A stretch of DNA of 64,000 nucleotides. Origin: Azolla caroliniana. Lineage: Eukaryota; Plantae; Polypodiophyta. How positions within the stretch are numbered: position 1 is the first letter of the stretch; every line of letters starts with the position of its first letter. The stretch is taken from assembly GCA_043228905.1 (NCBI GenBank), contig JBHGNT010000007.1, forward strand, positions 13,702,001 through 13,766,000, in the 5' to 3' direction. A program made the position numbers and the translations under genes. Of the stretch, positions 1,095 through 39,290 are shown one piece after another. A model generated the notes under the pieces. That model was given only the letters and a program-made list of their open reading frames with translations, made no database searches and had not been told where the DNA came from.

Positions 1095-1889
1095 TCATCT
1101 GCCACTGCCCGGTGCAAGGCCCTCATCATCAATCCCACCATGCATGTCTTGCAGAGGTTTCTCAACAACAGAAAAACGACCAAGTCTAGTTGCAATAGGA
1201 GCCATGCCATTGGACACTTTTCGTTACCCTACTTCTCCGTACTCCTACAATTCAGCCATGCCAGCAAGAGGTTTTACTTTGCAAGTAAGTCTTTGTTTTG
1301 GGTCAACTTCAATACAATCCCATGCCTTGCTGGATTCTGGTGCATCTACTTGTTTCATCGATATCGTGTTCATCCGAGCACATAAAACCCTCACCGCCCG
1401 CACAACACAACCCATATCCGTTGAAGCTATCGACGGAGGGGTTCTCTCTTCGGGGGAGGTTACCGAACCCACTATCCCATTGATACTTTTAGTTGGGTTC
1501 CATCATGAGGTATTAACATTCTACCTCATTGCAACCCCTCAACTTCCAATTTTTTTAGGGCTCTTATGGTTGGGAACACACAATCCAACAGTAGATTGGT
1601 GCAGCCGCTCCTTCACTTTTCCACAAACACCAGCGCGGGTCACGACTCCCCACCCTGTTACTTGTGTGGGGGCTGCTTTCAGCTTGGGTGCACATTCTTC
1701 TGAATTCAACTTAGTCTCCGACACTGCTGATTCCTTTGTGGCCAATTCAAACTTGGTCACTTCTATGTTGGTTGTGTCACAGGACGTCTCTTTTCCTGTC
1801 ACCAATTTTCACGCAAGATATAGCGACTTTTTGGATGTGTACAAAAAGAGAAATGCAGATCGGTTACTGGCACATTGCCCCTATGATTG

Positions 1890-2409
1890 TGTTGGGAAAC
1901 AAGTCCCTCTAGATGGGAAGTGAAGAGCCGAGTTGATGAGTAACTCGGCCTCGGCCGAAACCTAAATCATGAATACATCCAACTCAGATGACTATACTTG
2001 TAAATAGTCAAAATGTGCCCTTGTGGGCTATACTTGTAAATAGCCAAAAAGTTGCTTTCGTTTATAAGCAACTAGGGCAAACTTTATGAGGATATATCAT
2101 TATTGTGAAAGTGGTTTCCTGGGTAACTAAGAGAAAGCAAGAGGAAGAGTGTGAGAGTGTAACTCTATAGCCGTCTGTTGACTAGGAAGAACCTCGAGGT
2201 CGTTGCCTCCGAGCTTCTTGTTTTACTCCTCTCATCATCATAGTGATTCTGTTTTGGAGTTTGTGGACTCCACGTGGTTTCCATGGTAAATCTTGTGTCT
2301 CTCTGTACTTGTTTTTCTTGCATTCACGTTTTTCTGTCTGTGTACTAGTTCTTGATTTCTGCACACGAATACGAACATGTAACCGGTTGTGGCCGGTCAA
2401 TTCCTAACA
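1890..2409 (+). mobile_element. Solo LTR (copia C-related family) inserted in Z between protease and RT
   Basis: Termini TGTTGG...CTAACA. It interrupts HCPYDC|PIKL. Degenerate 5-bp TSD (GATTG/AATTT). Shares motifs with the LTRs at 1-182, 15927-16728 and 54839-55410. Confidence 0.8.
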
Positions 2410-5400
2410 AATTTCCCAATCAAACTCCAAGATGGTGCACATCAACCATTTGGGCCCATCTATGGGCTATCCGAACCCGAACTTGAGGCTCTTCACACAT
2501 ATATGGATCAAAACCTCCGCAAGGGCCTCATTCAACCCTCCAAATCACCGGCTGACCTTATTTGTCAAGAAGAAGGACAACTCATTACGCCTATGTGTGG
2601 ATTATCGAGGTCTCAACAAAATTACAGTACGTAATAGTTATCCCTTGCCTTTAATTCCAACACTCTTCGACCGGGCATATCTTCTCCAAAATTGACCTTC
2701 CAGGAGCCTACAATCCGGTGTGTATCAAGCCTGGAGACGAGTGGAAAACGGCCTTCCGGACATGCTATGGACATTTCGAGTAAAAGGTGATGCCTTTTGG
2801 TATCACCACCACCCCCGCAGTCTTCCAGCACATGATGAACAATATATTTTGGGAGTATCTCGATCACTTCATGCTTATCTACCTTGACGACATTCTAGTT
2901 TTTTCTTCCAACATAGAGGAGCACACACAACACGTCCGACTGGTTCTATCCAAACGTCGGGTACATGGGCTTTACACCAAAAGTGAGAAATGTGAATTCG
3001 ATCAGACCTTTGTCGAATTCCTAGACTATGTGATATCCCCCTCTGGGATCACAATGGATGCACACAAGGTAGTGGCAATCACCGATTGGCATGTCCTTAC
3101 TCGGTTCAAAGAGGTACAATCATTTCTTGGTTTTGCAAATTTCTATCGACAATTTATCAATGGTTTTTCCTCTTTAGTGCAACCTCTAATCATCCTTACT
3201 AGAAAAGATACTCCATTTCTTTGGACCTCCTTGGTGTAAAGTGCTTTTGATGCCCTCAAGGCAGCTTTTCTCATAGCCCTAGTATTGGTCCACCCCAACC
3301 CCACAAGGCCCTTCCAAGTTGAAACCGACGCCTCCGACTTGCCATTGGAGTTGTCTTGTCCCAACTAGACGACACGGGCACACTACATCCTAATTCCTTC
3401 TACTCTCAGAAGTTTACAGCCTCGTAAATCAATTAACCGGTCTACGATAAGGAGTTTGCAGCAATCATTTTTGCCTTTGCCGAATGGCGACCCTATCTGG
3501 CCAGGGCCCAACATCGTATCCAGCTGCTGACCGACCACAAAAATCTAATTTACTTCAGCACCAGTCGTACATTGAATCGTAGGCAAGCCCGATGGTCATC
3601 TTTTCTCACCGACTACGACTTCGAGATCTTGTTTTGACCCGATGTTCAACATGGGAAAGCTGATGCCCTCTCTGGGCAACCTGATTTTGCATTGCGCCCA
3701 AGGGATGACGCATATTTGCAACAATCCCAATGTTTGTTGAGGCCCGATCAACTTCAGATGTTCGCCACCTACATGTTGTTATCATGGACACACCAAACGC
3801 GGACTAGGATGGAGCACAAATGTTGGGGCTACGAGCAACAGATGAACTTGGAGCTAGATGTGACAAGGCTAGGAACTCTAGATGTTGTGAGTGACATGAG
3901 GACATGAAGATAGAAATAAAGATCAAGGAGACAAAGATGAGGCGAAATGAGAATACTAGATTGATGTGTCAATGACTAGTGTTGAATCTCGTGAAAGGGA
4001 CCAAGGACGTTACAAGTATTTATACAATGAGTTAAAGTACATGCATTAGAATATTCTTGAGAATATTTTGGACAATATTCTAGAACCCTCTAGAACCTTC
4101 TAGTTCTAGAACTTTCTAAAATCTCCTAGAACGTGAATAGATCATCTATGAAGATATACATAACACGATTATGTACTTGGATGTGTTGGTTAAAATATGT
4201 AAAGAGTCGATGGTGATTCTTGTGCAGCGGAATAGATATGTGTGTTATGTGTGTGTTTGAGAGAGAGAGAAAAAAAAAAATATAGAGGAGAGAAGATAAC
4301 ATAAGATAGATAAGCAAGAGAAATAAAATACTCAAGAAGAAGAAGATGTATATTTCACAAGTAGAATGGAGATACAAAATTGTAGCATTACAAGGAGTCA
4401 CAACCAACATTATATAAAGTATGCGGAGGGTGCTTTATATAGAGTCACCCTCTCTCTTCATTAACTTACAACAACCACTCTCTCTCTTGGGGAATGTGAA
4501 AACTCATATTCATGGGGCATATGTAACTCATTAGTTATGTGTCATAGAATATGATTCTATGACACATAGTTAATGTGCAGAGAGTAGTGGTGTGACTCTT
4601 GACCTTTGAGTAATCATGGATTCTCAAAAGGTGTGTTCACACATTGCACTATGTTGAGCTTGATTCTCAATACACCCCCTCAAGCTCAACTCGGGTCGGT
4701 TCCTTTTGATTGATGTCCGCTTCGGCTAGTATCCGGTTTGGACGATCTCCGGTGTCCGCTTTGGCTCGTACCCGGTTCGGATGGTATCCGGTTCTCGCTT
4801 GTACTCCCCCTCAAGCTTGTTGGCTCGTAAGGCTTTGGTGAAGATGTCGGCCCTCTGAAGATTCGTGTTGATGTGTTGAAGGTCGACATCTCTGGGTTGT
4901 ACGCGCTCTCAAATGAAGTGATAGTGCACTTTGATATGCTTTGTGCGTGCGTGGAACACCGGGTTTCGAGCCAGATATATACTGGTCATGTTGGATCCTT
5001 GATGGGGACGCCCAGATCCTTCAAAATCCTCTTCACCCATACGGCTTCACATGCAGCTACGACTACACCCCTGTATTCGGCCTCCGTACTCGAAACTCTG
5101 ACGGTAGGCTGCTTCTTACTACTCCAAGATATTGCTCCGCTACCGAGCAAGAAGATAAATCCGGAGGTCGATCGTCGATCGGCTTTGTAGCCTGCCCAGT
5201 CCGCGTCTGTGTACCCTTCGAGTCATATTGGTGTGGCCGATGCGTAGTGAACGCCATAATCCGTTGTGCCGCTCACATATCATAATACTCGCTTAGCGCA
5301 ATCGAAATGGGTATCTCGCGAAGTTTGTAGGAATTGGCTAAGGAGTCCAACTGGATAGCTAACATTGGGTCGAGTGATCGTGAGATAGATGAGGCTCACA

Positions 5401-19700: not shown

Positions 19701-20812
19701 ATCTTGCATCCGGTTGATGTCATCAGCCACACGTCTCCTATGCCGGCAATCCGGCATGTGCCTTCATTTCCCATCCGGACACAGCCGTGCTCACCGGCTG
19801 TGTAGGATGAGAAGTATTTCTTCTCCAGGGTCAGGTGGAACGACGCTCCGGAATCGACCACCCAGGTCATCTCTTCACCGGCAAGGTTCAGCTCCCTCTC
19901 TTCGGTAATGAGCATTATCTCTTCTTCACTTGCCGCGAGTGCCGTCGTTCCTTTCCGGTCCTGCCCTCGCCGATCCGGACCTCTCCGGTCCGTGGCTCCC
20001 CGGTATGCACCGTTTCTCTCCGGTGACTTCTTCGAATCGGTGTCGTCGGCTCCGTTGTCCTTTCGGTAATGCCGACAATTCTTCCGGAAGTGCCCCGGCT
20101 TCCCACAGTGGAAGCACGTGGGCCTTCCTCTTGACTGCGACCCGGTCCCCGACTTCTCCCGTCTTTGCGGACTCCGGTTCCATTGTCTTCCCCGTTCCGA
20201 TTTGGTAAGCAGCGCCTTCGAGTCGGAGGCCGGTTCTTTATCTCTCCGACGCGCTTCTTCGTTCAAAATACTTGTCTTTACCGTTTGTAGAGACAAGTTA
20301 TCTTCGGTGCAGGAGGTGCTGAGAGTCACCACCAAGTTCTCCCAGCTTTCCGGCAATGTACACATCAAAATGATGGCTTGCATTGCATCCTCCAACGGGA
20401 ACTTGATCGCCGCAAGTTGGTTCACGAATCCCATGAACGTGCTCACGTGTTCCACCATATTCTCGCCGTCCCGATACTTGAGGTTCACTATCTTCCTCAT
20501 CAGGGAGGTCCGGTTCAACGCATTCTTCCTCTCATAGAGGCCCGACAGCTTCTTCCACATCTCATAGGCGTTCGTATCGTTCGCCACATGTTGCAGGACA
20601 CTTACATCGACATATTGCCGGATCGTCGCTACGGCTTTCCGGTTCAGGAGCTTCCACTCCGACTCTATTACCCCCTTGGGTATCTCGGCATTGTCGATCG
20701 GTTCGTACAGGTCTCGGACGATGAGAAGGTCTTCCATCTTTATCTTCCAGTCGGCGTAGTTCTGTGAGTTCAACACCATCATGCCCGGAGGCCCACTACC
20801 GCCGCCTTCCAT
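16739..20812 (-). CDS. Copia gag-pol polyprotein (1357 aa from the first ATG after the PBS)
   Basis: CFHCGKPGHFRKNC zinc knuckle; WVVDSGAS protease; HxxxxH..CTDC and DDE integrase; YVDD RT; DSD/EAE/DS/D RNase H. The listed ORF start at 20866 is a non-ATG codon inside the LTR. Confidence 0.96.
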   Translation of the reverse strand: MEGGGSGPPGMMVLNSQNYADWKIKMEDLLIVRDLYEPIDNAEIPKGVIESEWKLLNRKAVATIRQYVDVSVLQHVANDTNAYEMWKKLSGLYERKNALNRTSLMRKIVNLKYRDGENMVEHVSTFMGFVNQLAAIKFPLEDAMQAIILMCTLPESWENLVVTLSTSCTEDNLSLQTVKTSILNEEARRRDKEPASDSKALLTKSERGRQWNRSPQRREKSGTGSQSRGRPTCFHCGKPGHFRKNCRHYRKDNGADDTDSKKSPERNGAYRGATDRRGPDRRGQDRKGTTALAASEEEIMLITEERELNLAGEEMTWVVDSGASFHLTLEKKYFSSYTAGEHGCVRMGNEGTCRIAGIGDVWLMTSTGCKMLLKDVRHVPEVRLNLISAGRLDDEGYTASIRNGVMKFSKGSLIVARARKVNTLYLMDSRLCSEELNVAADTAGELWHKRLCHMSEKGMKRLAEDNLIPVKHVHLEKCTDCLAGKKNRTSFHSRPPTRRSVPLELVHTDVCQVETKSHGGAQYFVTFIDDHSRKLWTAPLKTKDQVLSVFKELHARVERESGKKLKAIRADNGGEYRGQFQEYCRSKGIRLEFTVPKTPELNGLAERMNRTIMERVRSMLAHAKLPKGFWAEAMSTATYVINRSPSVPLDGDTPQKVWTGKEVSYRHLKVFGCLAYVHVAKDRRGKLDPKTRPCIFLGYGDDEFGYRVWDPVDKKIFRSRDIIFMEDKTLADWESEKKMKSSKSTGEDKLYEEQSRPARDRLALEDPAEDGEETEPAEEDETDTGTGPDPEMDSDEEETEQPVTEAPEWRYPLRERRAPRRFPEPEHVLLTDEGEPESFEEAKHDTQSRRWLSAMQDEMDSLHENHTYELVELPKGKRALRNKWVFKLKPGDAGNPPRYKARIVVKGFQQKKGVDFDEIFAPVVKMTSIRTVLSIAASMDLEVEQMDVKTAFLHGDLEEEIYMQQPEGFEKKGKEHLVCRLKKSLYGLKQAPRQWYRKFDSFMTDEGYHKTQSDHCVFVKKFEGGDSLILLLYVDDMLIVGRDQGKIRMLKKALHRTFSMKDLGPARQILGMHIIRDRKKKQLWLSQEKYVTKVLHRFNMSEARPVGSTLPANCKLSSKQSPKTKAEKEDMMKVPYASAIGSLMYAMVCTRPDIGYAVGVVSRYMSNPGKEHWNAVKWILRYLKGTANVCLRFGSGKPELDGFTDSDMSADVDTSRSTSGYVMTYAGGAVSWQSRLQKTVALSTTEAEYMAAVEADKEMIWMKDFIRELGIRQEEYRLYCDSQSAIHLAKNAAYHSRTKHIQRRYHWIRERIEDQEFVLTKIHTDENGSDMLTKVLTPDKLEACRKRIGLERHPMPK

Positions 20813-21874
20813 TTTCTGTGTTACCGTCGCTCTGATACCAATTTGTTGAGGACAGTGCTCGGCCACAACCGAGGAATAGGATCAACTCACAGTAAATAGG
20901 GAATACAAAGTACACGAAGACAATAGAGAGAAGAGTACACAGGGTGTTTTACGTGGAAAACCCTAAATGGGAAAAAACCACGGGAGTCCTCAAACTCCAA
21001 CTATCAGTATACACAGAGATGTACAATGGTGAAGCTACAAGGCAACAACCTTTAGCTCACTATCTTCGCCACAGGCGGCGGTAATACACAGAGGCGTCGA
21101 CCTCTTTCTTCCTCTCTCTCTCTCTCTCTCGGCTGCTCTCACTTCGCTCTCTCAGCTGAAAACACAAAATGAGCAACAACACAAACTGTTTGCCCTAAGT
21201 CATATTTATACACATATGACTTTCGGGCTATTTACAAATATAGCCTCAAGGGCTCTTGGCAAACATATTCACAAATATGTCCCCGCATCCGGATCTCCCT
21301 CCGGGTACATTCGTCATCCGGCTCCGTAACCGGGGTCTTCAGCATCCGGCTCCGTAGCCGGGGTATTCATCATCCGGCTCCGTAGCCGGGGTCTTCATCA
21401 TCCGGCACCGTAGCCAGGGTCTTCGTCATCCGGCTCCGTAGCCGGGGTCTTCAGCATCCGGCTCCGTAGCCGGGGTATTCATCATCCGGCTCCGTAGCCG
21501 GGGTCTTCATCATCCGGCACCGTAGCCAGGGTCTTTGTCATCCGGCTCCGTAGCCGGGGTATTCGTCATCCGGCTCCGTAACCGCAACCGGGCTTGCCGT
21601 CATTCATCTCCGGACATCCCATCCGGAGGGACCGAAATCCCAACACGAAGAAGGATGGCGGATTCTCCCGTGCTAGTATGGCGGTCCGCACTGCGCCGAA
21701 CCGTGGTGCAAGGCAACCAAGGCATATTTGCACCATTTCATCATCCTCCACATTGACGCTTATCGAGGCGAGTGCATCACAAAGCTCCTTGATCTTCAAG
21801 GTGTAGCTTGTAATGGACATATCCCATTGTTGGATGTTGTTCAACTCTTGGCGGAGTTGAAGCTTTCTCGCGGT

Positions 21875-22336
21875 TGTCAAGAGTTAGAATCTTGTCACAG
21901 ACACACCAAGCGTGGACTAAGACAAAGCACGGATGATGAGGCTATGATGGAGCGATGACACGACGAACTTAAGACGGGGAATGACACAAGAGCATAAAGA
22001 TAGAGATGAAGATCAAGGAGAGAGGATGGGCGAAATGGGAATACTAGATTGATATGTCCATGACTGACGTTGTTCACCTTGAATTCCTTCAAGGTGAACT
22101 CAACTATTTATACTAAGTGGGATGCATACATGTTGCACACATGTGATACAATAGAGCATGTAGGCAGTAGGTACGCATGCATGTGCCAAGTGTAAATAAT
22201 ACAAGGGAGAAATTATGCACATGATGCTAGCTAAAACCTACAATGAGGAAGTATATACATGATTATATGCTAGATGTGTGGTTAACACATAACACTCGAT
22301 TATAACATGGTCATGTCAAGAGTTCGAATCTTGACA
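21875..22336 (-). mobile_element. Solo LTR of an A-related gypsy family inserted in the B gag
   Basis: Perfect TSD GCGGT (21870-21874 / 22337-22341). Termini TGTCAAGA...TCTTGACA. Similar to the LTR at 3780-4197. Confidence 0.9.
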
Positions 22337-22950: not shown

Positions 22951-25900
22951 TGTCGAATACAAGTGTATAATGGACATATTCACACTATCCCTTTGTATAG
23001 CTCAAGTTTGGGCCATTTGTGTAATTAGCATAAATGGCAGTTGCCCTAAGTCTGTCACTATATAAAGTGACCTAGTAACCTTTTTGTAAGGTTGGTTGTA
23101 TTATTGTTTTCTATTGAATAGAAAAAGAGTCTTTTGTGCCTCCTCCTTCTCTCTCTCTCTCTCCATCTCTGTGCACGATCGTGGAAACTGTCATACGCAG
23201 GTACTCAACCCCAATCGAATGCTACTTGATCTTCCGCATTGACGGCCTTGTCTTCAACATCTGGTATCAGAGCAAGGTTCCTCAACCCGCTGTCGGCCGT
23301 CGTCTCAGCCTGCACAGCATTCGGTTCTTCGCGTCATCACAGCCTGCACAGTATTCGGCCTTTCGCTTCATCCTAGTCTGCAAAGCATTCGGTTTCCTGC
23401 GTCATTCGAAGAAACAGAGAAGAAAGTAGGCAAACACAAGCTTGAATCTCGCCGCGTTAGATCATCACTCGGAGTAAGCCAGTCGGCTGTACTCTACTTC
23501 CTTGATCGTAACTGCTTGAGGTGGGCTTCCTGCACAACGACGACTTCAAGGACAACCCCCAGTTCGCGTTTCACTCGATTGGACAATAATCGGAAGGACC
23601 AGTCGGTTCCATTGCTCTCACCGTTGCAGTCAACCGAAACTGAATCGGCTTGAAGTACTGTCGGATCATTAAATCTAGGTTCAACTCGACTAAGACAGTT
23701 GTCGGTAGTCAATCCCAACCAGATTCCCGATTCTCCGTAATCATCATCACTTGTGTCCAACTTCGGCTAGAACGACACTGAGTGGGCCAAACCGCTGCAC
23801 TTCACCAAAGTTCGTAGCCGACTTAGGGCAGAGTCATGACATCAACATCCAGCTCGTCAGAAATGAGTCTACGAAAGTTCGATGGATCGAACTTCAACTT
23901 CTGGAAGGAGCAAATGCAGGACTATCTCATAGTCAAGGGGCAAATCGATCCCATCGAAAATGAAGAACCTCCAGAAGGATACAAACCAATTGAGTGGCAG
24001 AAGCTGGACAGAATCGTCCGCGCCACGATTCGGATGCACCTATCGGAATCGGTATACTTTACGGTGCAATCGTGTACGACAGCATTCGAACTGTGGAAAA
24101 CACTGTCGGACACCTACGAAAAGAAGGTCGCTGCAACGAAGATGTTTCTGATCCGGCGCCTCTACAACCTGCGGATGAAGGAATCAGATTCGGTTCAAGC
24201 ACATCTCAATGAGTACGAAAGCATAAGCTCCCAAATCTCATCTCAGGGGACGGCAATCGAGGATGAACTCAGAGCAATGATACTCATGAGCAGCCTTCCC
24301 TCATCATGGGAAACTTTCATCACAACCGTGTGCAACGCGTCAACCACGGCTGTTAGATACTCCGAAGTCACGAGCGCAATCCTGACCGAAGCAGCTCGGA
24401 GAAAGTCTTTCGCCAAAGACTCAACAGACGACGCTTATGTAGTACAAGGTTCGACAGACCGATCGAACATACGAGGAAGAGATTCCTCACGGCAGCCGAA
24501 CAATCAGCGAAGACGGAGCCAGTCACGGGATAATCGAATCTGCAACTATTGCAAGAAACCCGGACACATCAAAGCCGACTGCCGCGCACTCAAGAACAAG
24601 AACGACAAGTCTCAGAAATCAGACAAGAAGAGTGGCCGGCATGAGGAGATCAATTACGTCAGCTTCTCAGCTGATGTGCTACCAAACGACCCGAATATAC
24701 TATCAATCGAAAATCCAGTCGGATCAGAAGTTCTGCTCACGACTGAAGAATCGAGCACATGGCTCTTAGATTCGGGCGCGTCATTTCACGTGACTCCTCA
24801 TCGATCCCAATTTCGGCAATATACGATCCGTCACTCCGACTCAGTTCGAGTCGGCAACTCGCAACACTGTGACATCATTGGAATCGGCACAGTAGAGCTC
24901 AACCTTGCAGGTGGCTCTACACTTGTACTTCACAATGTTCGACATGTACCCGAGCTCTCAAGGCCATTGATCTCAGTCGGACAACTAGATGAAGACGGCA
25001 TTCGTGCCGGTTTTTCTTCGGGAGGGTGGACACTCCACAGGGGGAACCTCCTGCTTGCTAGAGGACCCAAGATACACTCACTGTATCCGTTACATGTTAC
25101 GCTCAGAGAGGGTAACCTGTTTTTGGTGGATATTCCTGTGTCATCACTATGGCACAGAAGATTAGGACACCTCAGCAAGGCCGGCATTACGCACCTATCT
25201 AGAGCCGGATACATCCCTAAACTCTCCTTCTCGGACCATCAATTCTGCGAACACTGCCAGTATGGCAAACAAGCAGCCGCATCACAGCCGACATCAGCAC
25301 CAAGAGAAACGAGACCTCTCGATTTAGTCCACTCGGACGTCTGTGGCCCAATGCCGCATCAGTCTCTCGGCGGTGCCTCTTACTTCGTCAGTTTTATTGA
25401 CGATTCGACTCGAAAGGTGTGGGCTTATCCAATTCGCACCAAAGATCGTGTCTTCTCGATCTTCTCCGATTGGCTCGCTATGGTAGAAAATCAAACTGAC
25501 CGAAAACTGAAATGCTTTTGGACCGACAATGGGGGAGAGTTCAAATCAGAAGAATTCGTCAAATTCTGCCGACAACGCGGCATCCGACGTGAATTTACGG
25601 CACCACACAGTCCGGAGCAAAACGGGATTGCAGAACGCATGAATCGGACAATCCAAGAACGGATAGTTTCCATGCTCCAACACTCCAGACTGTCGGATGG
25701 CTTCTGGGCAGAGGCTCTACTCACGGCAGTACACATAATCAATATGTCGCCAAGCAGACCTCTAGGACTTCAAATTCCTCAGGAACTATGGATCGACAGT
25801 AAGCCGAATTACGACAAGCTGAGGATCTTCGGATGCGAGGCGTATGCCCTTATTCCGAAAGATGATCGCCGAAAACTTGCACCTCGGTCCAGGAAATGCA

Positions 25901-28367
25901 TTTTCCTTGGATATGGATCAGACGGCGAAATGGGATACCGACTCTGGGACCCCGAACGCAGACAAATCGTTCGAAGTTCGGACGTTGTGTTCAATGAGTC
26001 GGCTATGAATCCATCAGTCGAAACACCGATCGAAGTCCGAAGGGTAACATTTTCCGATGTGCCGACCCTTCAAGAAGGCCCCGCTCTTAACACACGGTCA
26101 GCTTCACGGGTAGCTGAACCTTACACTACCGACTCGGACAACTCTGACTCGGCACAGCAGAATAATTCGCTTTCGGACCATCCGACCTCGATACCCGATA
26201 CGACCAGTCCAATCATACCTCGACGATCCAAGAGACTGTCGCAACCTCCGGAGAGGTATTCTCCTGGAATTTTCTTCACCGACGCCGGCGAACCGACGTC
26301 TTACGAAGAAGCATCGACATCTGTCGATTCAGCCACCTGGCATCTGGCGATGGAGTCGGAAATGCACTCCATTCGGGCAAACAAGACTTGGGATCTGGTC
26401 GAATTACCTAAGAATCGACGTGCTCTTCCTTGCAAGTGGGTTTATCGACTAAAAGAGACGTCTGATTCGACCACCCCAAAGTACAAGGCCAGATTAGTTG
26501 CGAAGGGCTTCCGACAAGAATATGGCGTCGACTTCGACGAGATTTTTTCACCAGTGGTGAAAATGACAACCCTTCGTTTTCTACGCGGCGTAGTGGCAGC
26601 CGACAACTTGGAGCTGATTCAGCTAGATGTCAAAACAGCCTTCCTCCATGGTGATCTTGAAGAGGAAATTTATATGGAGCAGCCAAAAGGCTTCGTGGCA
26701 ACTGGCCAAGAACATCTAGTCTGCCGACTCAGGAAGAGTCTATACGGCCTCAAACAGGCACCGCGACAATGGTACAAGAAGTTCGACGACTTCATCCAAT
26801 CGATCGGCTTCTCAAAAAGCGATGAGGACCATTGTCTTTTTACCAACACAGCTCAAGATGGATCAGCCATCTTCCTCATCATTTACGTGGACGACATGCT
26901 AATTTCTGGACGCCACGCAGGCGAACTTGCCGATCTCATTCGGCAATTACGGTTGAAGTTTGCCATGAAGGACCTCGGTCCGGCACGACACATACTTGGC
27001 ATGAAGATTAGTCGGCATCGCGATAAACGACATCTTTTTTTGTCTCAGACCGACTATATTGGACGTGTCTTGGAACGCTTCAACATGCAATCAGGCAAAT
27101 CTGCTTCAACCCCGCTCCCCATGAATCTTCGGCTCTCTCAGCGAGACTGCCTGACATCCGGTCCGGAGGGGGAAGATATGAAGTCGGTACCGTATGCACC
27201 GGCAGTCGGCTCCCTTATGTACCTGATGGTCGCGACACGGCTTGATATTTCTCACGCCGTAGGAGTCGTTAGCAGATTTATGCACAATCCTGGCCGATCG
27301 CATTGGAACGCAGTCAAGCATGTGTTCAAATATCTGGCTGGCACAAAAGACCACGGCATTCTTTTCGGTCCGAACTCAACCTCAGGCGTAGTCGGTTACA
27401 CCGACTCGGACTTCGCCGGCTGTATAGACAGTCGGAAATCAACAACTGGATACTGCTTCAAATTCGGCAATGGAGCAATTTCGTGGAAGTCGAAACTTCA
27501 GGAGTGCACAGCGACCTCAACGACCGAAGCAGAATATGTAGCTGCGTTCGACGCTGCAAAAGAAGCTTTGTGGCTCGGCCGGCTGGCGCACACGTTTCGA
27601 CAAGTCGACCATGACTCGGCCCCAGTTGTCTATAGCGACAGTCAAGGTGTTGTTGCCTTGTCGAAAAATCCGGTTCACCACAACGCCTCCAAACATATCG
27701 ACGTTCGATATCACTTCGTTCGGGACTGCGTCATTTCAGGGAAAATCGGTCTAGAGAAAATATCCACAACCGACAATGTCGCAGATGGAATGACCAAGTG
27801 TCTTTCGGCAGACCGCTTTCGGTCCCTTCGGCATCAGATGGGCGTAACAACAAACCAGTCCGGTTAGAGCCGGACACAGGGCAGGATGGTTTCAGACAAC
27901 CGACATCAGTTCCTTAATGATCGGCTTCCACTCTTCCGACCCGACCAGTCCGGCCTTCTGCCTTCGGACCCTGCCGACTCGAACAAAACTGATATGTCCG
28001 AGAACCTAGGTTTATACCTGTAATCTTAGATAACCCATGTATACGCCCATTACGGGGGAGTGTCGAATACAAGTGTATAATGGACGTATTCACACTATCC
28101 CTTTGTATAGCTCAAGTTTGGGCCATTTGTGTAATTAGCATAAATGGTAGTTGCCCTAAGTCTGTCACTATATAAAGTGACCTAGTAACCTTTTTGTAAG
28201 GTTGGTTGTATTATTGTTTTCTATTGAATAGAAAAAGAGTCTTTTGTGCATCCTCCTTCTCTCTCTCTCTCTCCATCTCTGTGCACGATCGTGGAAACTG
28301 TCATACGCAGGTACTCAACCCCAATCGAATGCTACTTGATCTTCCGCATTGACGGCCTTGTCTTCAA

Positions 28368-28441: not shown

Positions 28442-28959
28442 AATAGAGGAGAGAAGAGAACATAAGATAGATAAGCAAGAGAAATAAAATACTCAAGAAA
28501 AAGAAGATGTATATTTCACAAGTAGAATGGAGATACAAAATTGTAGCATTACAAGGAGTCACAACCGACATTATATGAAGTATGAGGAGGGTGCTTTATA
28601 TAGAGTCACCCTCTCTCTTCATTAACTTACAACAACCACTCTCTCTCTTGGGGAATGTGAAAACTCATAGTCATGGGGAATATGTAACTCATTAGTTATG
28701 TGTCATAGAATCATTCTATGACTCTATGACACATAGTTAATGTGTAGAGAGTAGTGGTGTGACTCTTGACCTTTGAGTAATCATGGATTCTCAAAATGTG
28801 TGTTTACACATTGCACTATGTTGAACTTGATTCTCAACAAAATATAACACTTGACTATAATACAAGAGGTCAAGAGTTCAAATCTTGACATAACTTTTGT
28901 CATGTTTGTGACATTATCCTCCCCTTTACGACCACCTTTTCGAAAGCACAATGTAGGGG

Positions 28960-30345: not shown

Positions 30346-32125
30346 GCGAAGCAGTGGAAGTGAAGTGGTCGACTCACTTCTTCTATTATGAGAGGGTATA
30401 GGGTGACCCAAGACACGGCACAAACAGTAGCACTACCTAGAAACCCACGCGATCCCCACCAAGAAAGTGCGCGCTTGTGACCCCCACTAAAACTAGAAGG
30501 TGACTGATCGAAATTGGTCCTTGCCAATAGAAAGTGGCACAAGACTTGAACTATAACGAAAATGCAGTGCAAGCGAGCAATGAACCCCACCAGGAAAGTG
30601 AGTGGTTGTGACCCCCACCAGAACTGGGAAGGCGAGCGATTGAAAGCACTCCTCACCAAAACCGTGATGCAAAATGATACTTAAAAATGAAGTAGTGTTG
30701 ATGAAGACAATGGTTCGGCGAAGAGGTGTTGAAAACGATGACGTCGAAGACAAGGATGTTGATGATGGTAACTCTAGAAGCAAAGGCGATAACAAAGAGG
30801 GGTGATACTTCCAGTTGGAAGGGATTCAACTTGAAAGGGACAGTTTGAATCCCTTGAAAGAGACCAAAGATGTTACAAGTATTTATACAATGAGTTGAAG
30901 TACATGCATTAGAATATTTTTGAGAATATTTTTGAGAATATTCTAGAACCTTCTAGTTCTAGAACTTTCTAAAAACTCCTAGAACATGAAAAGATAATCT
31001 ATGAAGATATACATAACATGATTATGTACTTGGATGTGTTGGTTACAATATAGCACTTGACTATAATACAAGAGGTCAAGAGTTCAAATCGTGACATAAT
31101 TGTTGTCATGTTTGTGACAGTTGCATGATGATTCTTTGCTCAACGAGATCGCCACGGCAACCATGTCATACCCATTCGCCAAAGACATCATGGGTTGCAT
31201 CAATGACCCATCCCCAGACATGAAACACTCATATCTCAACCAATTTACAACTCGGGATGGGTTACTATATCATAATCATCTCTTGTACGTTCCCGAAGGA
31301 TCATGTCATACACGAGTACTACAAAACTGTCATGATGATCCTCTTGCCGGTCACTTTGGGGTCAAGAAAACCCTAGAGTTTCTATCTCGGGGGTTTTGGT
31401 GGCCCCAACCTTGGAAATTTGTCAAGGAATTTACCAAGACATGTGATGTATGTGCTCGGTCCAAAATAGCTCACCATCGGCCATACGGTCTTCTCCACCG
31501 GCTCCCAATTCCAACTTGATCATGGGCCTCTGTAGCCATGGACTTTATAACCGACCTCCCTCTGGTCGGTGGCCATGACACGGTGCTAGTAATTGTTGAT
31601 CAGTTTTCGAAGATGGCTCACTTTGTCCCATGTTCCAGAACCATTTCCAAAGAAGAGACAGTTGGCCTTTTTCTTAAAAATGTTGCCTGATTACACAGCT
31701 TACCCGAGGATATCACCTCTGATCGAGGTTCTCAATTCATTTCCCACTTATGGCGATGACTTCTATAGACATTCAGGATTGTTGTAAACTTGTCATCAGC
31801 ATACCATCCTCAAACTGATGGAAAAACCGAACGAGTCAACCAAATCCTCGAACAATACCTCCGGTGTGCCATGAGCTACCAACAAGAGGATTGGGTAGAC
31901 TTCCTTGCAATGGCGGAATTTGCCTACAATAATAGTATCCATGCTTCGACTATGGTTTCCCCCTTCTTTGCAAACTATGGATTTCACCCTCATTTCAGCA
32001 TTTCCACACCTGCAACTTCGATCAATCCTTCGGCAGAGACGCATGCCCGCATTTTTCACGATGTCCACCGTGAGCTCTCCCTACAGCTCCGTGTCGTTGG
32101 CAACCAGTATAAAGATCAGGACGAT

Positions 32126-32573
32126 TGTTACAGGCATGACCGTATAATAACCCGTGGTGAGAATTTACCATAGTATTCTATACATGTGGATAAGTGTGAG
32201 GATTAAATGAGAGTGTAAAGAAGGGGAGGATTACTTTTAATCCTCGGGATTGAGATAACCCATTAGACCAAGTGTGAACTTGCCTGGGGGCCTTGGGTCT
32301 TGCTATAAGGCCTAGCTACCCTCATTTGATCATCTCTTGAGTACGTCGAAACTCTGTTTCGTGGTGGGTCAACTCTTGTAGCGGGCGCGCCAGCACCAGG
32401 TACGACTCGACGCCACGGCAGTGGTATGGAACGCCAATCGAGGCTCAAGTCTGTCTCGATCCCTTCGCTCAAGGGTGATCAGGTGGATCGGCACCCTTCT
32501 TTCTCTCTCTCCTTTCTTATTTCTTATATCTTTTATCCTTATCATATGCTTACGTTAGATCATAACTCTAACA
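32126..32573. mobile_element. Solo LTR inserted in the Z integrase
   Basis: Termini TGTTA...TAACA; TATA-like TATAAGG; imperfect TSD CGAT/CGAA. The Z integrase resumes after 32573. Confidence 0.72.
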
Positions 32574-33075
32574 CGAACGCACATTGCTTGGCTACACTGA
32601 CATTTGCAGTCAAGGACATGGGTTGGTTGTTACATCGCCACCACACATCCTTGTGCAAAATTGGACTACAAAAGGCTATGTCGCTTCCGTATCATTGAGC
32701 GGATCAACCCAGTCACCTTCCGGTTAACACTTCCTCCAACATTCAAGATTCACAATGTTTTTCATGTTTCCCTCCTCAAACTATACCATCCTTCTCGAAT
32801 TCTGGGACGACAACCTCCTCCACCGCCACCTGTGAAATTGTGGATGGGGGAACAATATGAGGTTGACCAAATCCTCGACTCCCACTATCGTCGTCGACAA
32901 CTCCAATATTTGGTCTTATGGAAAGGTTACCCCATTTCGGACGCCACATGGGAACCGGTTACACATTTACAAAATGCTCCAAAGGCCATTTGCAATTTTC
33001 ATCTACAACACCCATATAAGCCAGCCACGGGTCCTAGGAAGCGGCCTTAGAGGGTGGATAATGTCATGGACATGA

Positions 33076-33145
33076 TGGAATGTAGGGGGTTGAAACCATG
33101 ACTTCTTGGTCTTATTGGGCAACCTTACCAATTGAGCTACATCCA
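33076..33145 (-). other. tRNA-like (pseudo-tRNA) segment in the U3 of the Z 3' LTR, antisense to the element
   Basis: Minus strand reads TGGATGTAGCTCAATTGGTAAGG...AAGTCATGGTTTCAACCCCCTACATTCCA. It has an A-box (TAGCTCAATTGG), a B-box-like GGTTTCAACCC, an acceptor-stem-like pairing and a length of 70 nt. Related segments lie at 31032-31096, 28845-28890 and 22270-22336. Confidence 0.7.
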
Positions 33146-33462
33146 TCTATGAATTATTGTATTGTATAAGCTTCAACTTATTACATTGTAGGTTAATCGC
33201 GATAACTTTCAAGAAACTTCTAGAGAATGCATCTTCATGCACTCTCTAGATGTTTCCTAGCTTACATGCATATCTCCACATTCTTGTATAAATACTCAGG
33301 TGCACCTTGATTACAATCTAGGTGAACAACACTAGTTACAGAAGCATAATTTAGTTCTTGCCCTCTTGTCTATTTTCTCTCTTTCTCTCTTTCTCTCTCT
33401 CTCTCTCTCTGAGTATTTAGCCTCGTTTACTTGTCCCTGGCCTCGTCTACTCGTCCTTGACA

Positions 33463-36057: not shown

Positions 36058-37163
36058 ATATACATATACATATGCTACTCTTGCCATTGCGGGTAGGTGG
36101 TGAATTTCATTTAGACATGTTTTTGTTGTTGTCACTTGCTAATAGTATGTAATCAAATGCAGAGGAAAAAAAGGTTGCAGACAAAAAACAAACACTCTTT
36201 CCATTGCAAGGCATGTGCGGGCTCGAGAGAGCATGCAAAATTTTGGATACAAGATCAATGGCTTGCTCACATTATGCTTCCTTTCGGACACGACAAGAGA
36301 TGGGTGAAAGAAGACAAAAAAAAAAAAAAAAGGCCATCTTGGAGGTGTGTCATATCGTAGTATGAAGTCGAAGGCCATGTTTTGTTGGTACTGCCCCGCC
36401 ACCTCATTCATTATGTTTGTTTCTTCAAAGAAAGAAAAGAGAGATCCCTCCCAGGCACTGAGGCAGGGGTTAATAATAATGGTGGGGTGCATCGTGGACC
36501 TATTCCAACCCTTCTTCATCAATGAGCAAAAAGCAAGTATCAACTTTACACTTGTGTTTTTTTTTTTTTTATTGATTTTTATCCCTGTTTTTTTTTTTTT
36601 TGTTGCAAATTCTTTCAGCTTTATGAATGAATGGATAAGCATGCGATGCATCTGCATATGTAATGCTCATACATTTTTATATAACTCTGTGCACGCACAC
36701 TTTGCTTTTTGACTTTATCTTAAGAAGCCCTTTTTATTTTTACCTTAAATGTATTAATGTAGCCACCAGGTCTCTCAGATCTATATACCTTTGTTCATAC
36801 TACATTCATGTATCTCTGCTCGTTTTTCTTCAACACAAAAGCTTTTGCATCTCTTTTCCCTTCCCTTATACAAAACTTTGCTTTCATTTCTTTTCCTCAT
36901 ACAAACCATTTTCTTTAGCGTCTCAATTTTTTTTCTGATACATACCATACCTGTTTTTGTGGGACTATCTTATTGCTCCTAAACCTCTCTCCAATTTTTC
37001 TGTCTTTCATTTTTTGCATTGATTTTCCCTGTTTCTCCCAAGTTTTTCCCCCACTTCTCCCAGCTTTTCCCACATTTTTGTCCACAATTGTTTAGATTCT
37101 TCAATTTTGGATAGTCTGCATCCTCATTAAATTTTTAGTCTTTGATTACAAACTGTTAACAAC

Positions 37164-39290
37164 ATGACATTGTCAAGTACAAATCACAATGAGGCAGGGG
37201 CAGAGTGCATGGCGATGATGATCGGCCGCCACATTCCAAGCGTGGAAGAGAAGATAAGAGCATCTGAATCTTTCCAAAAAGACGTCTTAGTGGCAGCCCA
37301 CATGGAAGCGCTTCATGATGCTTACATACTAGAGATGGGCTCACATGAACACTCCATGCACAAGATTAAAGTTGAGATTTCAAGCCCCACATCCATACAT
37401 TCAATCTCATCCTTAAAGCCATCTACATTGAAACAACTTAAGGTTGGCAAGGTTCATCGACAACGAGTTGTCCGAGGTACCCTATGCGTGAACACGCTTT
37501 GCACCAAGGTTGGCCCCTCAGGGGCAGGTCAGACCCCGATCGCTGTGAATGTGTTGGAAGATGAAGAAGGTAACGCCACACCTATCTACATCGTTTGCAA
37601 TACAATGATGAAAAATGATATTTGTAATGTGGACTCTGCTCAAGCTCAAGTTATGTTCCCTACGGGTTCAAAGGTTGCCATTAAGGAGCCTTATCTGACT
37701 CGCTTGCCTTATGGAGAGGTGGTCTTGTCAGTGGAGAATAGCACCGATGTGGTGTTCTTATGGGTGCCCGATCAATCACGTTCTGATGATGATATAAACA
37801 TGGGGTCTAAAACTGACGAAGAAGAATTTAATGCTCATGGCACACTAAATGTCATCAATAATGTGATTTTGGATGTTGTAGATCATGAAGAGACATCAAA
37901 AGATTTTGGTTCACTGGATGTGATCAATAACATAGGAGTATGTGATATAAAGAATGTAGATATTGCAGAAAATCAGGAGAAGACACTGGAAGTAGAAGAA
38001 TTAGTTCATGATTCACTAGCTGTGATGGATAACATTGGAATATGTGGCACAAAGAATGCGGATATTGAAGATCACGAGGAGACATTGGAAGACAAATATT
38101 TCGGTCATGGTTCACTTGATGTGTCTGATGACATAAGAAAATGTGACATGAAGGATGTGGATATTGAAGTTTCTGAGGGGAAATCAAAAGTTGAACATGG
38201 TCCACTAGGTGTGGTCAAGAATGTTGGATGCAGAACATTAAAGGAGGTGGGTGTAGATGAGCAGGAGACACAGGAAACCGATATCCAAGAAAAATTAGGC
38301 CATATTGATGAGGCGAATGTGGTCGACAATGCTCCAAAGTATGAAGCCAATGCTTGTCCTGAGGCTGAGGACACCAATGATGGATCTAAGTGCAAGGAGG
38401 ATGAAAATAATGTAGTCGTCAACAATGTGGATAAAATCGAAAAGGTCGATGAGCTGACTTCTAACAAAAGTGGCAGTGATCATGTCGGATTGGCTGATGG
38501 ATTGAATGAGTCCGAAGATGTCATGAAGCCTAGTATTGGAATTGAAGAGAAAGATGAAGATGAAAATGAAAATGAAAATGATAGAATTGGCTCTGGAAAT
38601 AGATCTGTTGAACATCACGGTGTAGAGATGGAAGATGTGATTGGAAATGGAGATGGAGATTCCAGAGTGTATGATCCGATTGTCCTAAATGGTGTGCGAA
38701 GCAGAGATAAAGATGTAATGCAGTATACGACAGCATCGGAGGAGAGGATCTTAGTACAAAAAGAGGAGGAAACTGATGCCGATGCAAGCATTTTACGAAC
38801 AAAAGGGAATGAACTTTTCACAAGAGGAGAATTTATAAAAGCTGGGGAAATGTACACAAGGGCATTGAAAGCGGCAGCGGCAGTAACAACCCATATATTG
38901 TTATCGAATGGAAGTGATGTGCTTGATACTGACAATGAGAGATTGAAAATGGAGGAGGTGCTATGTTTTTCGAATCGTGCCGAGGTATGGCTACGGCTCG
39001 GTGATGACAAGAAAGCCTTTGCGGATGCCGATGCAGCAATGGCTGCGATTCATCTCCTTCAAAAGTTCAATCGATCAGGTCAACAACATACCAATGTAGC
39101 AATGGCCAAAGCGCTCTTTCGCAAAGGCCGAGCCCTAATGGGTCTCCGGCGCTACCATGAGGCATTAGTGCTTTTCTATCACTTGCAACATCTCTCCAAA
39201 GACCCTCACCTATTCAAAGCCATCACCACTTGTAAATCTCGCCTAGCCCACCGAGGCATGAAGAATGGTCGTGCCAAACCCTCACAATGA
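37164..39290 (+). CDS. Intronless 708-aa protein: conserved N-terminal beta-rich (OB-like) domain, acidic repeat linker and C-terminal TPR repeats
   Basis: Long open ORF in AT-rich surroundings. TPR motifs LRTKGNELFTRGEFIKAGEMYTRAL, FSNRAEVWLRLGDDKKAFADADAA and AKALFRKGRALMGLRRYHEAL. N-terminal LKP..L..H..VLEDEEG..FPTG..VAIKEPY..V....DVVFL motif. Confidence 0.85.
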   Translation: MTLSSTNHNEAGAECMAMMIGRHIPSVEEKIRASESFQKDVLVAAHMEALHDAYILEMGSHEHSMHKIKVEISSPTSIHSISSLKPSTLKQLKVGKVHRQRVVRGTLCVNTLCTKVGPSGAGQTPIAVNVLEDEEGNATPIYIVCNTMMKNDICNVDSAQAQVMFPTGSKVAIKEPYLTRLPYGEVVLSVENSTDVVFLWVPDQSRSDDDINMGSKTDEEEFNAHGTLNVINNVILDVVDHEETSKDFGSLDVINNIGVCDIKNVDIAENQEKTLEVEELVHDSLAVMDNIGICGTKNADIEDHEETLEDKYFGHGSLDVSDDIRKCDMKDVDIEVSEGKSKVEHGPLGVVKNVGCRTLKEVGVDEQETQETDIQEKLGHIDEANVVDNAPKYEANACPEAEDTNDGSKCKEDENNVVVNNVDKIEKVDELTSNKSGSDHVGLADGLNESEDVMKPSIGIEEKDEDENENENDRIGSGNRSVEHHGVEMEDVIGNGDGDSRVYDPIVLNGVRSRDKDVMQYTTASEERILVQKEEETDADASILRTKGNELFTRGEFIKAGEMYTRALKAAAAVTTHILLSNGSDVLDTDNERLKMEEVLCFSNRAEVWLRLGDDKKAFADADAAMAAIHLLQKFNRSGQQHTNVAMAKALFRKGRALMGLRRYHEALVLFYHLQHLSKDPHLFKAITTCKSRLAHRGMKNGRAKPSQ

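What the first reader, a model, noticed from the sequence alone, without database searches (positions are those of the whole stretch)
33062..33145. Gypsy LTRs carry an antisense tRNA-like module at the outer U3 end
Seen: about 14 bp inside the Z 3' LTR, the minus strand reads TGGATGTAGCTCAATTGGTAAGG..AAGTCATGGTTTCAACCCCCTACATTCCA. This is 70 nt with a canonical A-box, a near-canonical B-box, ends that can pair like an acceptor stem, and a 5' end resembling plant tRNA-Ala (GGGGATGTAGCTCA). At the same LTR position and in the same antisense orientation, element A reads GGATGT..GTTGGTTA..GCACTTGACTATAATACAAGAGGTCAAGAGTTCAAATC (31032-31096; also 4179-4197 plus 28845-28890), with D-loop, anticodon-arm, AGGTC variable-loop and T-loop patterns. 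The solo LTR at 21875-22336 ends in GAGTTCGAATC. Established: Cassandra TRIMs carry 5S rRNA in their LTRs, and from memory some non-autonomous LTR groups carry tRNA-like LTR segments; TFIIIC-bound B-boxes can act as chromatin barriers. Inference: a chromovirus lineage, including a once-autonomous member, has kept a tRNA-derived module across divergent LTR subfamilies. It could drive outward or antisense Pol III transcripts or insulate the LTR.
Basis: partly seen in the sequence, partly recalled or inferred. Interest (0 to 1): 0.8.

Follow-up and report, generated by a model that had tools for sequence, protein, structure and literature searches.

The report
Chromovirus LTRs keep a backward tRNA
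A family of plant jumping genes, including protein-coding members, carries a decayed, backward-facing tRNA gene just inside the outer edge of its terminal repeats, and the best-kept part is the site that would bind the RNA polymerase III factor TFIIIC, so it likely serves as a DNA docking site rather than making a tRNA.

Summary
The segment is real, tRNA-derived and family-wide, but the window's own Z copy is weak (9.1 bits, E 1.8 on a tRNA covariance model built here; no Rfam or ARAGORN hit). Relatives settle it: LTRs of elements with unbroken pol frames score 24-31 bits (E 2e-5 to 1e-7), element A's two copies are the top hits in 64 kb (E about 0.002), and 8 of 9 U3 segments beat all 400 shuffles. 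The module is antisense, about 15-35 nt inside the LTR edge, in a self-priming (tRNA-independent) chromovirus of a likely fern. In 20 Z-type LTRs the B box is the least variable of 223 unselected U3 windows. A-type and solo LTRs keep the B box but lack the A box. No cloverleaf, no covariation. The same head also forms one half of an abundant ~200-bp SINE-like repeat; direction of transfer is unresolved. Best reading: a retained TFIIIC site (inferred); neutral hitch-hiking is a close rival. No expression or binding data. Known relatives: Helenus TRIMs (non-autonomous), HIV-1 U3-R and Ty3 U3 (tRNA-primed). New variant of a known kind.

The parts
33076..33145 (-). tRNA-derived module in U3 of the Z 3' LTR (antisense to the element)
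   Evidence: CM 9.1 bits; 0 of 400 shuffles; relatives up to 31 bits
33128..33139 (-). A box of the Z module
   Evidence: model positions 4-22
33087..33097 (-). B box of the Z module; 33095 is a private change in this copy
33062..33462 (+). Z 3' LTR (TG...CA); TATA at 33287-33294, predicted R start near 33320
   Evidence: aligns end to end with 14 relatives
33049..33061 (+). polypurine tract of Z
   Evidence: same tract in relatives
32601..33050 (+). end of Z pol: Tf2-1-like SH3 and chromodomain with the aromatic residues of the cage (Y, W, Y read by eye)
   Evidence: Pfam PF24626, PF00385; translation
1204..3778 (+). Z pol, protease to RNase H, in pieces; continues at 31121-32134 and 32561-33047
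   Evidence: tblastn with P0002, 59-78% identity
30845..31119 (-). 5' LTR of element A (U5 largely missing; self-priming-type site follows)
31032..31096 (+). tRNA-like segment of the A 5' LTR: anticodon arm, variable loop, T loop/B box (31080-31090); no A box
   Evidence: CM 18.2 bits E 0.0024; model positions 21-62
28841..28913 (-). outer part of the A 3' LTR with the tRNA-like segment
   Evidence: CM 18.3 bits E 0.0021
3780..4198 (-). rest of the A 3' LTR, separated from its outer part by a nested insertion (4198-28840, 5-bp target duplication) that landed inside the tRNA-like segment
21875..22336 (-). solo LTR of a third subfamily; B-box-like loop at 22320-22330 in a terminal hairpin; no A box

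Best explanation
The outer U3 end of these chromovirus LTRs holds a decayed tRNA gene facing away from the element, and it is likely kept as a DNA docking site for TFIIIC rather than as a source of tRNA. Shown: tRNA ancestry, fixed position and antisense orientation, presence in elements with unbroken gag and pol frames, loss of the cloverleaf, and a B box that varies less than any other unselected U3 window. Inferred: a tRNA gene or tRNA-SINE head entered U3 once by recombination or template switching; reverse transcription copies U3 to both LTRs, which fixed it; TFIIIC bound about 35 bp from the element edge and about 220 bp upstream of the Pol II TATA box would keep that edge nucleosome-poor and slow the spread of flanking heterochromatin onto the LTR promoter, useful to an element whose chromodomain is expected to aim it at methylated chromatin. 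In Z-type LTRs, which also keep an A box, short outward or antisense Pol III RNAs would be a possible by-product.
For: tRNA models built from 63 unrelated prokaryotic tRNAs give 31.0, 24.2 and 23.9 bits for LTRs L057, L031, L067 (16 of 52 loci searched, chosen by me); the B-box half, which was not part of the search word, scores 12.8 bits, E 0.011, in six L031-type LTRs. B box 2 mismatches in 200 cells, lowest of 223 overlapping 10-nt windows outside the search word, median 11% (20 LTRs), and 11/11 identical between subfamilies whose pol four-fold sites differ at 67-69%. A family: 1 polymorphic place of 22 around the T loop against 21 of 89 inward (Fisher p 0.034), and that one change gives the other base allowed in a B box. 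A, solo and L026 types keep the B box but not the A box: what is common to all is the TFIIIC site, not a full promoter. No compensatory pairing. Barrier action of TFIIIC-bound B boxes is recalled knowledge from yeast and mammals; I saw only search listings on it.
Against: No binding, chromatin or RNA data. The rank test rests on about 22 independent windows (p roughly 0.05) and on related copies from one series of assemblies that were picked for an intact A-box word. U3 as a whole is 88% identical between the divergent subfamilies, so the module as a whole is not more conserved than the rest of U3; in the A family 30940-30985 is also free of variants. In A and solo LTRs the B box sits in a hairpin next to att-like words, which could explain its constancy. 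A TFIIIC barrier has not been shown here for plants.
Confidence: 0.4

Rival explanations
1. Neutral passenger: a tRNA or SINE head was captured in U3, is copied to both LTRs automatically, and rode along when this LTR spread across pol lineages; it does nothing now.
For: Whole U3 is equally well shared between subfamilies (88% against 71% for pol DNA), as expected from LTR swapping; module parts other than the boxes vary as much as the flanks; A and solo types have lost half of it; loose ends hint at relatives that leave the Z sequence at 33075, before the module.
Against: B box is the least variable unselected window, ahead of the TATA and terminal windows; a B-box word survives at the same place in three LTR types whose U3 is otherwise about 60-75% alike.
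Confidence: 0.3
2. Live Pol III unit: Z-type LTRs are transcribed outward. The 5' LTR would read into host DNA, the 3' LTR would make a 130-185-nt RNA antisense to the purine tract and pol end, and such read-out may have given rise to the SINE-like repeat that shares the head.
For: A and B boxes at tRNA spacing; first T4 run 130-185 nt downstream in 11 of 11 3'-LTR contexts; homology with the repeat stops at the predicted transcript start; A- and Z-type U3 starts are co-linear over 135 nt, which would put the module in the LTR before the repeat arose; 7 of 9 full-length repeat copies have no T4 on the head strand.
Against: No RNA evidence; terminator position is not fixed (135, 174, 182 nt); A and solo types lack the A box; the repeat has the exact tRNA box spacing and higher sequence-only scores (up to 27.8 bits), as expected if it is the donor; A is no closer to Z modules than to the best true tRNA.
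Confidence: 0.18
3. RNA structure: the segment matters on the sense strand, as a long hairpin at the start of U3 in the genomic RNA (purine-tract processing, packaging or strand transfer).
For: Z-type modules fold as a rod, slightly more stably on the element strand (L057 -30.9 against -26.0 kcal/mol, z -4.7; window -23.8 against -21.0); the 4-nt loop varies while its stem does not.
Against: No covariation: 1 pair with a two-sided change, 464 of 500 shuffles reach it; A-type does not form this rod (z -0.4 on the element strand); the non-LTR repeat has the same complementarity.
Confidence: 0.1
4. Primer-bridging site as in Ty3 or HIV-1: the anti-tRNA sequence in U3 pairs with the primer tRNA.
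For: Position and orientation match those precedents (passages).
Against: The primer-binding site is complementary to the element's own R start (11 of 11 nt in 4 of 6 copies, decayed in 2), also in A: Tf1-type self-priming, no tRNA primer.
Confidence: 0.02

Closest known systems
Helenus TRIMs / TRIMp3 (Kojima 2024, PMC10886601; read parts 1-4 of 6 and figure-legend passages)
   Same: tRNA-derived sequence in LTRs, conservation centred on boxes A and B, not a functional tRNA, not the primer; origin by SINE capture proposed there.
   Different: Helenus is non-autonomous, 311-1263 bp, and the promoter is proposed to transcribe the element; here 5-6 kb gag-pol elements with their own TATA box carry it antisense at the outer edge, where it cannot transcribe the element. 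The paper notes that 'not a few' Repbase LTRs resemble part of a tRNA but analyses only TRIMs; it does not state orientation in the text I searched.
Cassandra and Ajax TRIMs (as described in PMC10886601)
   Same: Pol III internal promoter in the LTR; Cassandra occurs in ferns.
   Different: 5S-derived, non-autonomous, transcribed through the element.
HIV-1 U3-R tRNA-Lys3-like sequence (Piekna-Przybylska 2010; seen only as a citation and one sentence in PMC6468702) and Ty3 bipartite PBS (PMC5371799, passages)
   Same: tRNA-complementary sequence in U3 of an autonomous LTR retroelement.
   Different: Those act by pairing with the primer tRNA; this lineage is self-priming.
Tcn1 / Tf1-Sushi chromoviruses (PMC6317226, PMC2864245, passages)
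   Same: Chromodomain with aromatic cage, self-priming site, 400-500 bp LTRs, 5-bp target duplications.
   Different: No tRNA-like U3 segment is mentioned in the passages seen; reported there from mosses and lycophytes, not ferns.
tRNA-derived SINEs
   Same: The non-LTR repeat sharing the head has A and B boxes at its 5' end, a short A-rich or (GA)n end and ~170-235 bp length.
   Different: It has a second, opposite-facing tRNA-like half, ragged ends on both sides and no demonstrated target duplications.

Membership tests
Helenus (TRIMp3) | tRNA-derived sequence with boxes A and B in the LTR | tested here: met
   Z-type LTRs; A and solo types have only the B box
Helenus (TRIMp3) | non-autonomous, under about 1.3 kb, no coding capacity | tested here: not met
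   gag 357-381 aa and pol frames of at least 972 aa beside module-bearing LTRs; A is non-coding but about 2.6 kb
Helenus (TRIMp3) | Pol III promoter placed to transcribe the element | tested here: not met
   minus strand relative to the LTR in 9 of 9 segments
functional tRNA gene | cloverleaf recognised by RF00005 at gathering score or by ARAGORN | tested here: not met
   best RF00005 hit 26 bits (<29) in 1 of 20 loci scanned of 52; no anticodon stem in Z type
Tcn1 / Tf1-Sushi chromovirus | gypsy domain order with C-terminal chromodomain and aromatic cage | tested here: met
Tcn1 / Tf1-Sushi chromovirus | self-priming site instead of a tRNA primer-binding site | tested here: met
   (sequence complementarity only)
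Tcn1 / Tf1-Sushi chromovirus | placement in the Tcn1 clade on an RT-RH-INT tree | not tested
   no reference Tcn1 sequences held; closest named hits are amphibian, fish and fungal gypsy proteins
Ty3/HIV-type primer-bridging U3 site | tRNA-primed element with U3 complementary to the same tRNA | tested here: not met
   self-priming site
TFIIIC barrier (B-box site) | TFIIIC occupancy and barrier activity | not testable with these tools
   needs chromatin data or reporter assays
SINE (the non-LTR repeat) | Pol III head, 3' tail, target-site duplications, partner LINE | tested here: inconclusive
   head met; tail A-rich or (GA)n; duplications cannot be told from the microsatellite flanks; no partner sought

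The most novel reading that the evidence does not exclude
An autonomous, self-priming chromovirus lineage domesticated a tRNA gene as an outward-facing TFIIIC/Pol III boundary at both LTR edges, spread that LTR across divergent pol lineages by recombination, and its read-out transcripts gave birth to a new SINE-like family.
Probability: 0.15. Interest if true: 0.8.

Novelty: new variant of a known kind. Interest (0 to 1): 0.5.

Why it matters
Pol III modules in LTRs are described for short non-autonomous elements that use them to be transcribed. A backward-facing one, with a conserved B box, in coding-competent elements would be a different use: a transposon carrying its own chromatin boundary, or seeding outward Pol III transcription and TFIIIC sites at every insertion and solo LTR. 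It gives a natural, high-copy system for asking whether B boxes act as barriers in plants, and a traceable exchange of a promoter between an LTR family and a SINE-like family.

Tried and rejected
No whole genome is held for this window, so no genome-wide family alignment. Rfam: no tRNA hit in the window or in the two local stretches at E<=10. Viral contigs: nothing by protein or by DNA word. Twenty distant chromovirus-like loci (33-49% identity) gave no tRNA-model hit better than E 0.033 in 77 kb; their LTR ends were not located, so this is a weak control. No RNA holder listed; no RNA run was laid. blastn of the module against phage records found no tRNA gene. The one ARAGORN call in 52 loci (L041 1283-1357) is not the module and was not followed. 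Isotype assignment failed. Rod-hairpin covariation negative. Primer-bridging rejected. A profile search failed on file format and was not repeated; BLAST replaced it. Earlier scan notes held nothing on this feature; those on tRNA ends replacing the purine tract concern another gypsy lineage. Direction of transfer between LTR and repeat could not be fixed; no tree was built.

Full report
Setting. The window is a nest of LTR elements in a plant that is likely a fern: the best named homologues of the host frame at 37146-39290 are from Adiantum and Ceratopteris (one gene only). Z is a gypsy element on the plus strand whose pol lies in pieces from 1204 to 33047 (59-78% identity to P0002) and ends in an SH3 and a chromodomain. 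Its 3' LTR is 33062-33462. Element A is inserted in Z on the minus strand, has a tandem-repeat interior and no gag or pol match; its 3' LTR is split by a further insertion. A solo LTR lies at 21875-22336. The three LTR types are homologous: solo and Z-type 72% over 129 nt around TATA and R, solo and A 70-75%.

Is it tRNA-like beyond chance? Standard tools say no for the window: ARAGORN 0, no RF00005 hit. With filters off over all 64 kb, the two A segments rank first and second (18.3 and 18.2 bits, E 0.002), Z third (9.1 bits, E 1.8) of 9 matches; sequence-only gives E 5e-4 and 9e-4 for A (model positions 21-64), E 0.11 for the Z A box, E 1.5 for the solo LTR. Against 400 dinucleotide shuffles of each 150-nt U3 start, 8 of 9 segments were never reached and the solo once; all 9 best hits are antisense to the LTR.

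Is it a family trait? Four runs (three organism labels, three studies) hold hundreds of contigs on both the Z and the A LTR starts, some bridging purine tract or LTR edge and module. A 20-base word from the Z A box found 53 matches in 52 metagenome loci, all from one accession series and so not independent. By rule 25 of 53 are Z-type LTR starts and 28 are not (one of these, L048, looks LTR-type by eye; one is a 30-nt scrap). Ten LTR matches have the pol end directly upstream; L057, L067 and L060 have unbroken pol frames of 972 aa up to the chromodomain, L030 and L060 unbroken gag (these contigs may be collapsed from many copies). Their modules score 31.0 (L057), 24.2 (L031) and 23.9 (L067) bits, with a 7-bp acceptor stem in L057, a partial T and D stem and no anticodon stem (16 of 52 loci searched). 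About 9 bits come from the search word by construction; the unselected B-box half alone gives 12.8 bits, E 0.011.

A second family shares the head. Depth over the A box is 5-10 times that of the flanking LTR in all four runs. The non-LTR matches are a dispersed repeat of about 170-235 bp in CT-rich tracts, often tandem or truncated, made of two tail-to-tail tRNA-like halves; one half is the Z module (79% identity outside the word, against 86% among LTRs and 82% among repeats), the other scores 10-13 bits. Shared sequence runs from the head's start to about 10 nt from the LTR edge. The repeat keeps exact tRNA box spacing and scores best on sequence (27.8 bits); the LTR keeps the better acceptor stem. 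A- and Z-type U3 starts align co-linearly over 135 nt, but the A module is no closer to Z modules (best 16) than to the best true tRNA (18). One old capture with later birth of the repeat, and capture or refreshing from the repeat, both remain open.

What is conserved? In 20 Z-type U3 regions the 10-nt B box has 2 mismatches in 200 cells, the lowest of 223 windows outside the search word (median 11%). Between L057/L067 and L060, pol is 79% identical in protein with 67-69% of four-fold sites different along its whole length, yet the B box is 11/11 and the rest of U3 is 87-88%. That last figure cuts both ways: the LTR was swapped between pol lineages or is constrained throughout, and the module as a whole is not special. 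In the A family the 22 nt around the T loop have 1 polymorphic place against 21 of 89 inward (p 0.034; two places private to the window copy left out), but a further 46-nt block inward is also invariant. A-box conservation could not be judged because copies were selected on it. Z modules fold as a rod on either strand without covariation.

Mechanism. The site after the 5' LTR is complementary to the element's own predicted R start, 32 nt after the TATA box (4 of 6 copies perfect over 11 nt), the self-priming arrangement reported for Tf1/Sushi and Tcn1 chromoviruses (PMC6317226, passages). That removes the Ty3/HIV-1 explanation, in which U3 pairs with the primer tRNA (PMC5371799 and PMC6468702, passages). 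An antisense promoter at the outer edge cannot transcribe the element, which removes the Cassandra/Helenus explanation. What all LTR types share is the B box. I therefore favour a retained TFIIIC site acting at DNA level as a boundary for the LTR promoter (0.4; the barrier role of B boxes is recalled, not tested), ahead of neutral carriage (0.3), live outward transcription (0.18) and an RNA hairpin (0.1).

Literature. Ten searches found no description of an antisense tRNA module in autonomous chromovirus LTRs. Read: PMC10886601 parts 1-4 of 6 plus legend passages; passages only of PMC2864245, PMC6317226, PMC5371799, PMC6468702, PMC6786969, PMC3601003 and bioRxiv 10.64898/2026.03.01.708851; the rest as listings. 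No supplements were read; the Helenus tables and Repbase entries could hold orientation data or autonomous examples, and that paper says tRNA-like pieces in LTRs are not rare. The library lacks most subscription journals.

Verdict. Observation partly confirmed, interpretation partly supported, new variant of a known kind, interest 0.5.

Noticed in passing
L021-L069 (e.g. L045 ~830-1030, L053, L036, L038, L062): Abundant ~170-235 bp repeat of two tail-to-tail tRNA-like halves joined by a ~60-bp linker, sitting in (CT)n tracts, often tandem; one half is the Z LTR module.
   Followed up: partly
L057, L067 versus L060: pol synonymous sites near saturation (67-69% different) while U3 is 87-88% identical: likely LTR exchange between divergent pol lineages, or strong U3 constraint.
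   Followed up: partly
window 21875-21897 and 22314-22336: The solo LTR has the same 23-nt near-palindrome (21 of 23) at both ends inside one target duplication, as if a U5-U3 junction was processed at an inner att-like word.
   Followed up: no
window 4198-28840: A nested insertion landed inside the tRNA-like segment of A's 3' LTR; a single event, so no claim of targeting.
   Followed up: no
window 1204-33462; L030, L031, L060, L067: Self-priming Tf1/Sushi-Tcn1-type chromovirus in a likely fern; the two surveys seen report Tcn1 only from mosses and lycophytes.
   Followed up: partly
window 30845-30900: A's 5' LTR lacks most of U5: its R start is followed within about 15 nt by the complementary self-priming site.
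   Followed up: no
window 59947-60264: Plant SRP RNA-like copy, 69.7 bits, below the gathering score.
   Followed up: no
window 16739-20881 (-) and 23827-27867 (+): Two copia elements with unbroken frames and 99% identical LTRs; the first has a 28-bp tandem array in its LTRs.
   Followed up: no
L045 581-655: Another, unrelated tRNA-like copy (24.9 bits).
   Followed up: no
L026 (minus strand, near 560-470): An A/solo-type LTR start with a decayed B box, showing that type outside the window.
   Followed up: partly
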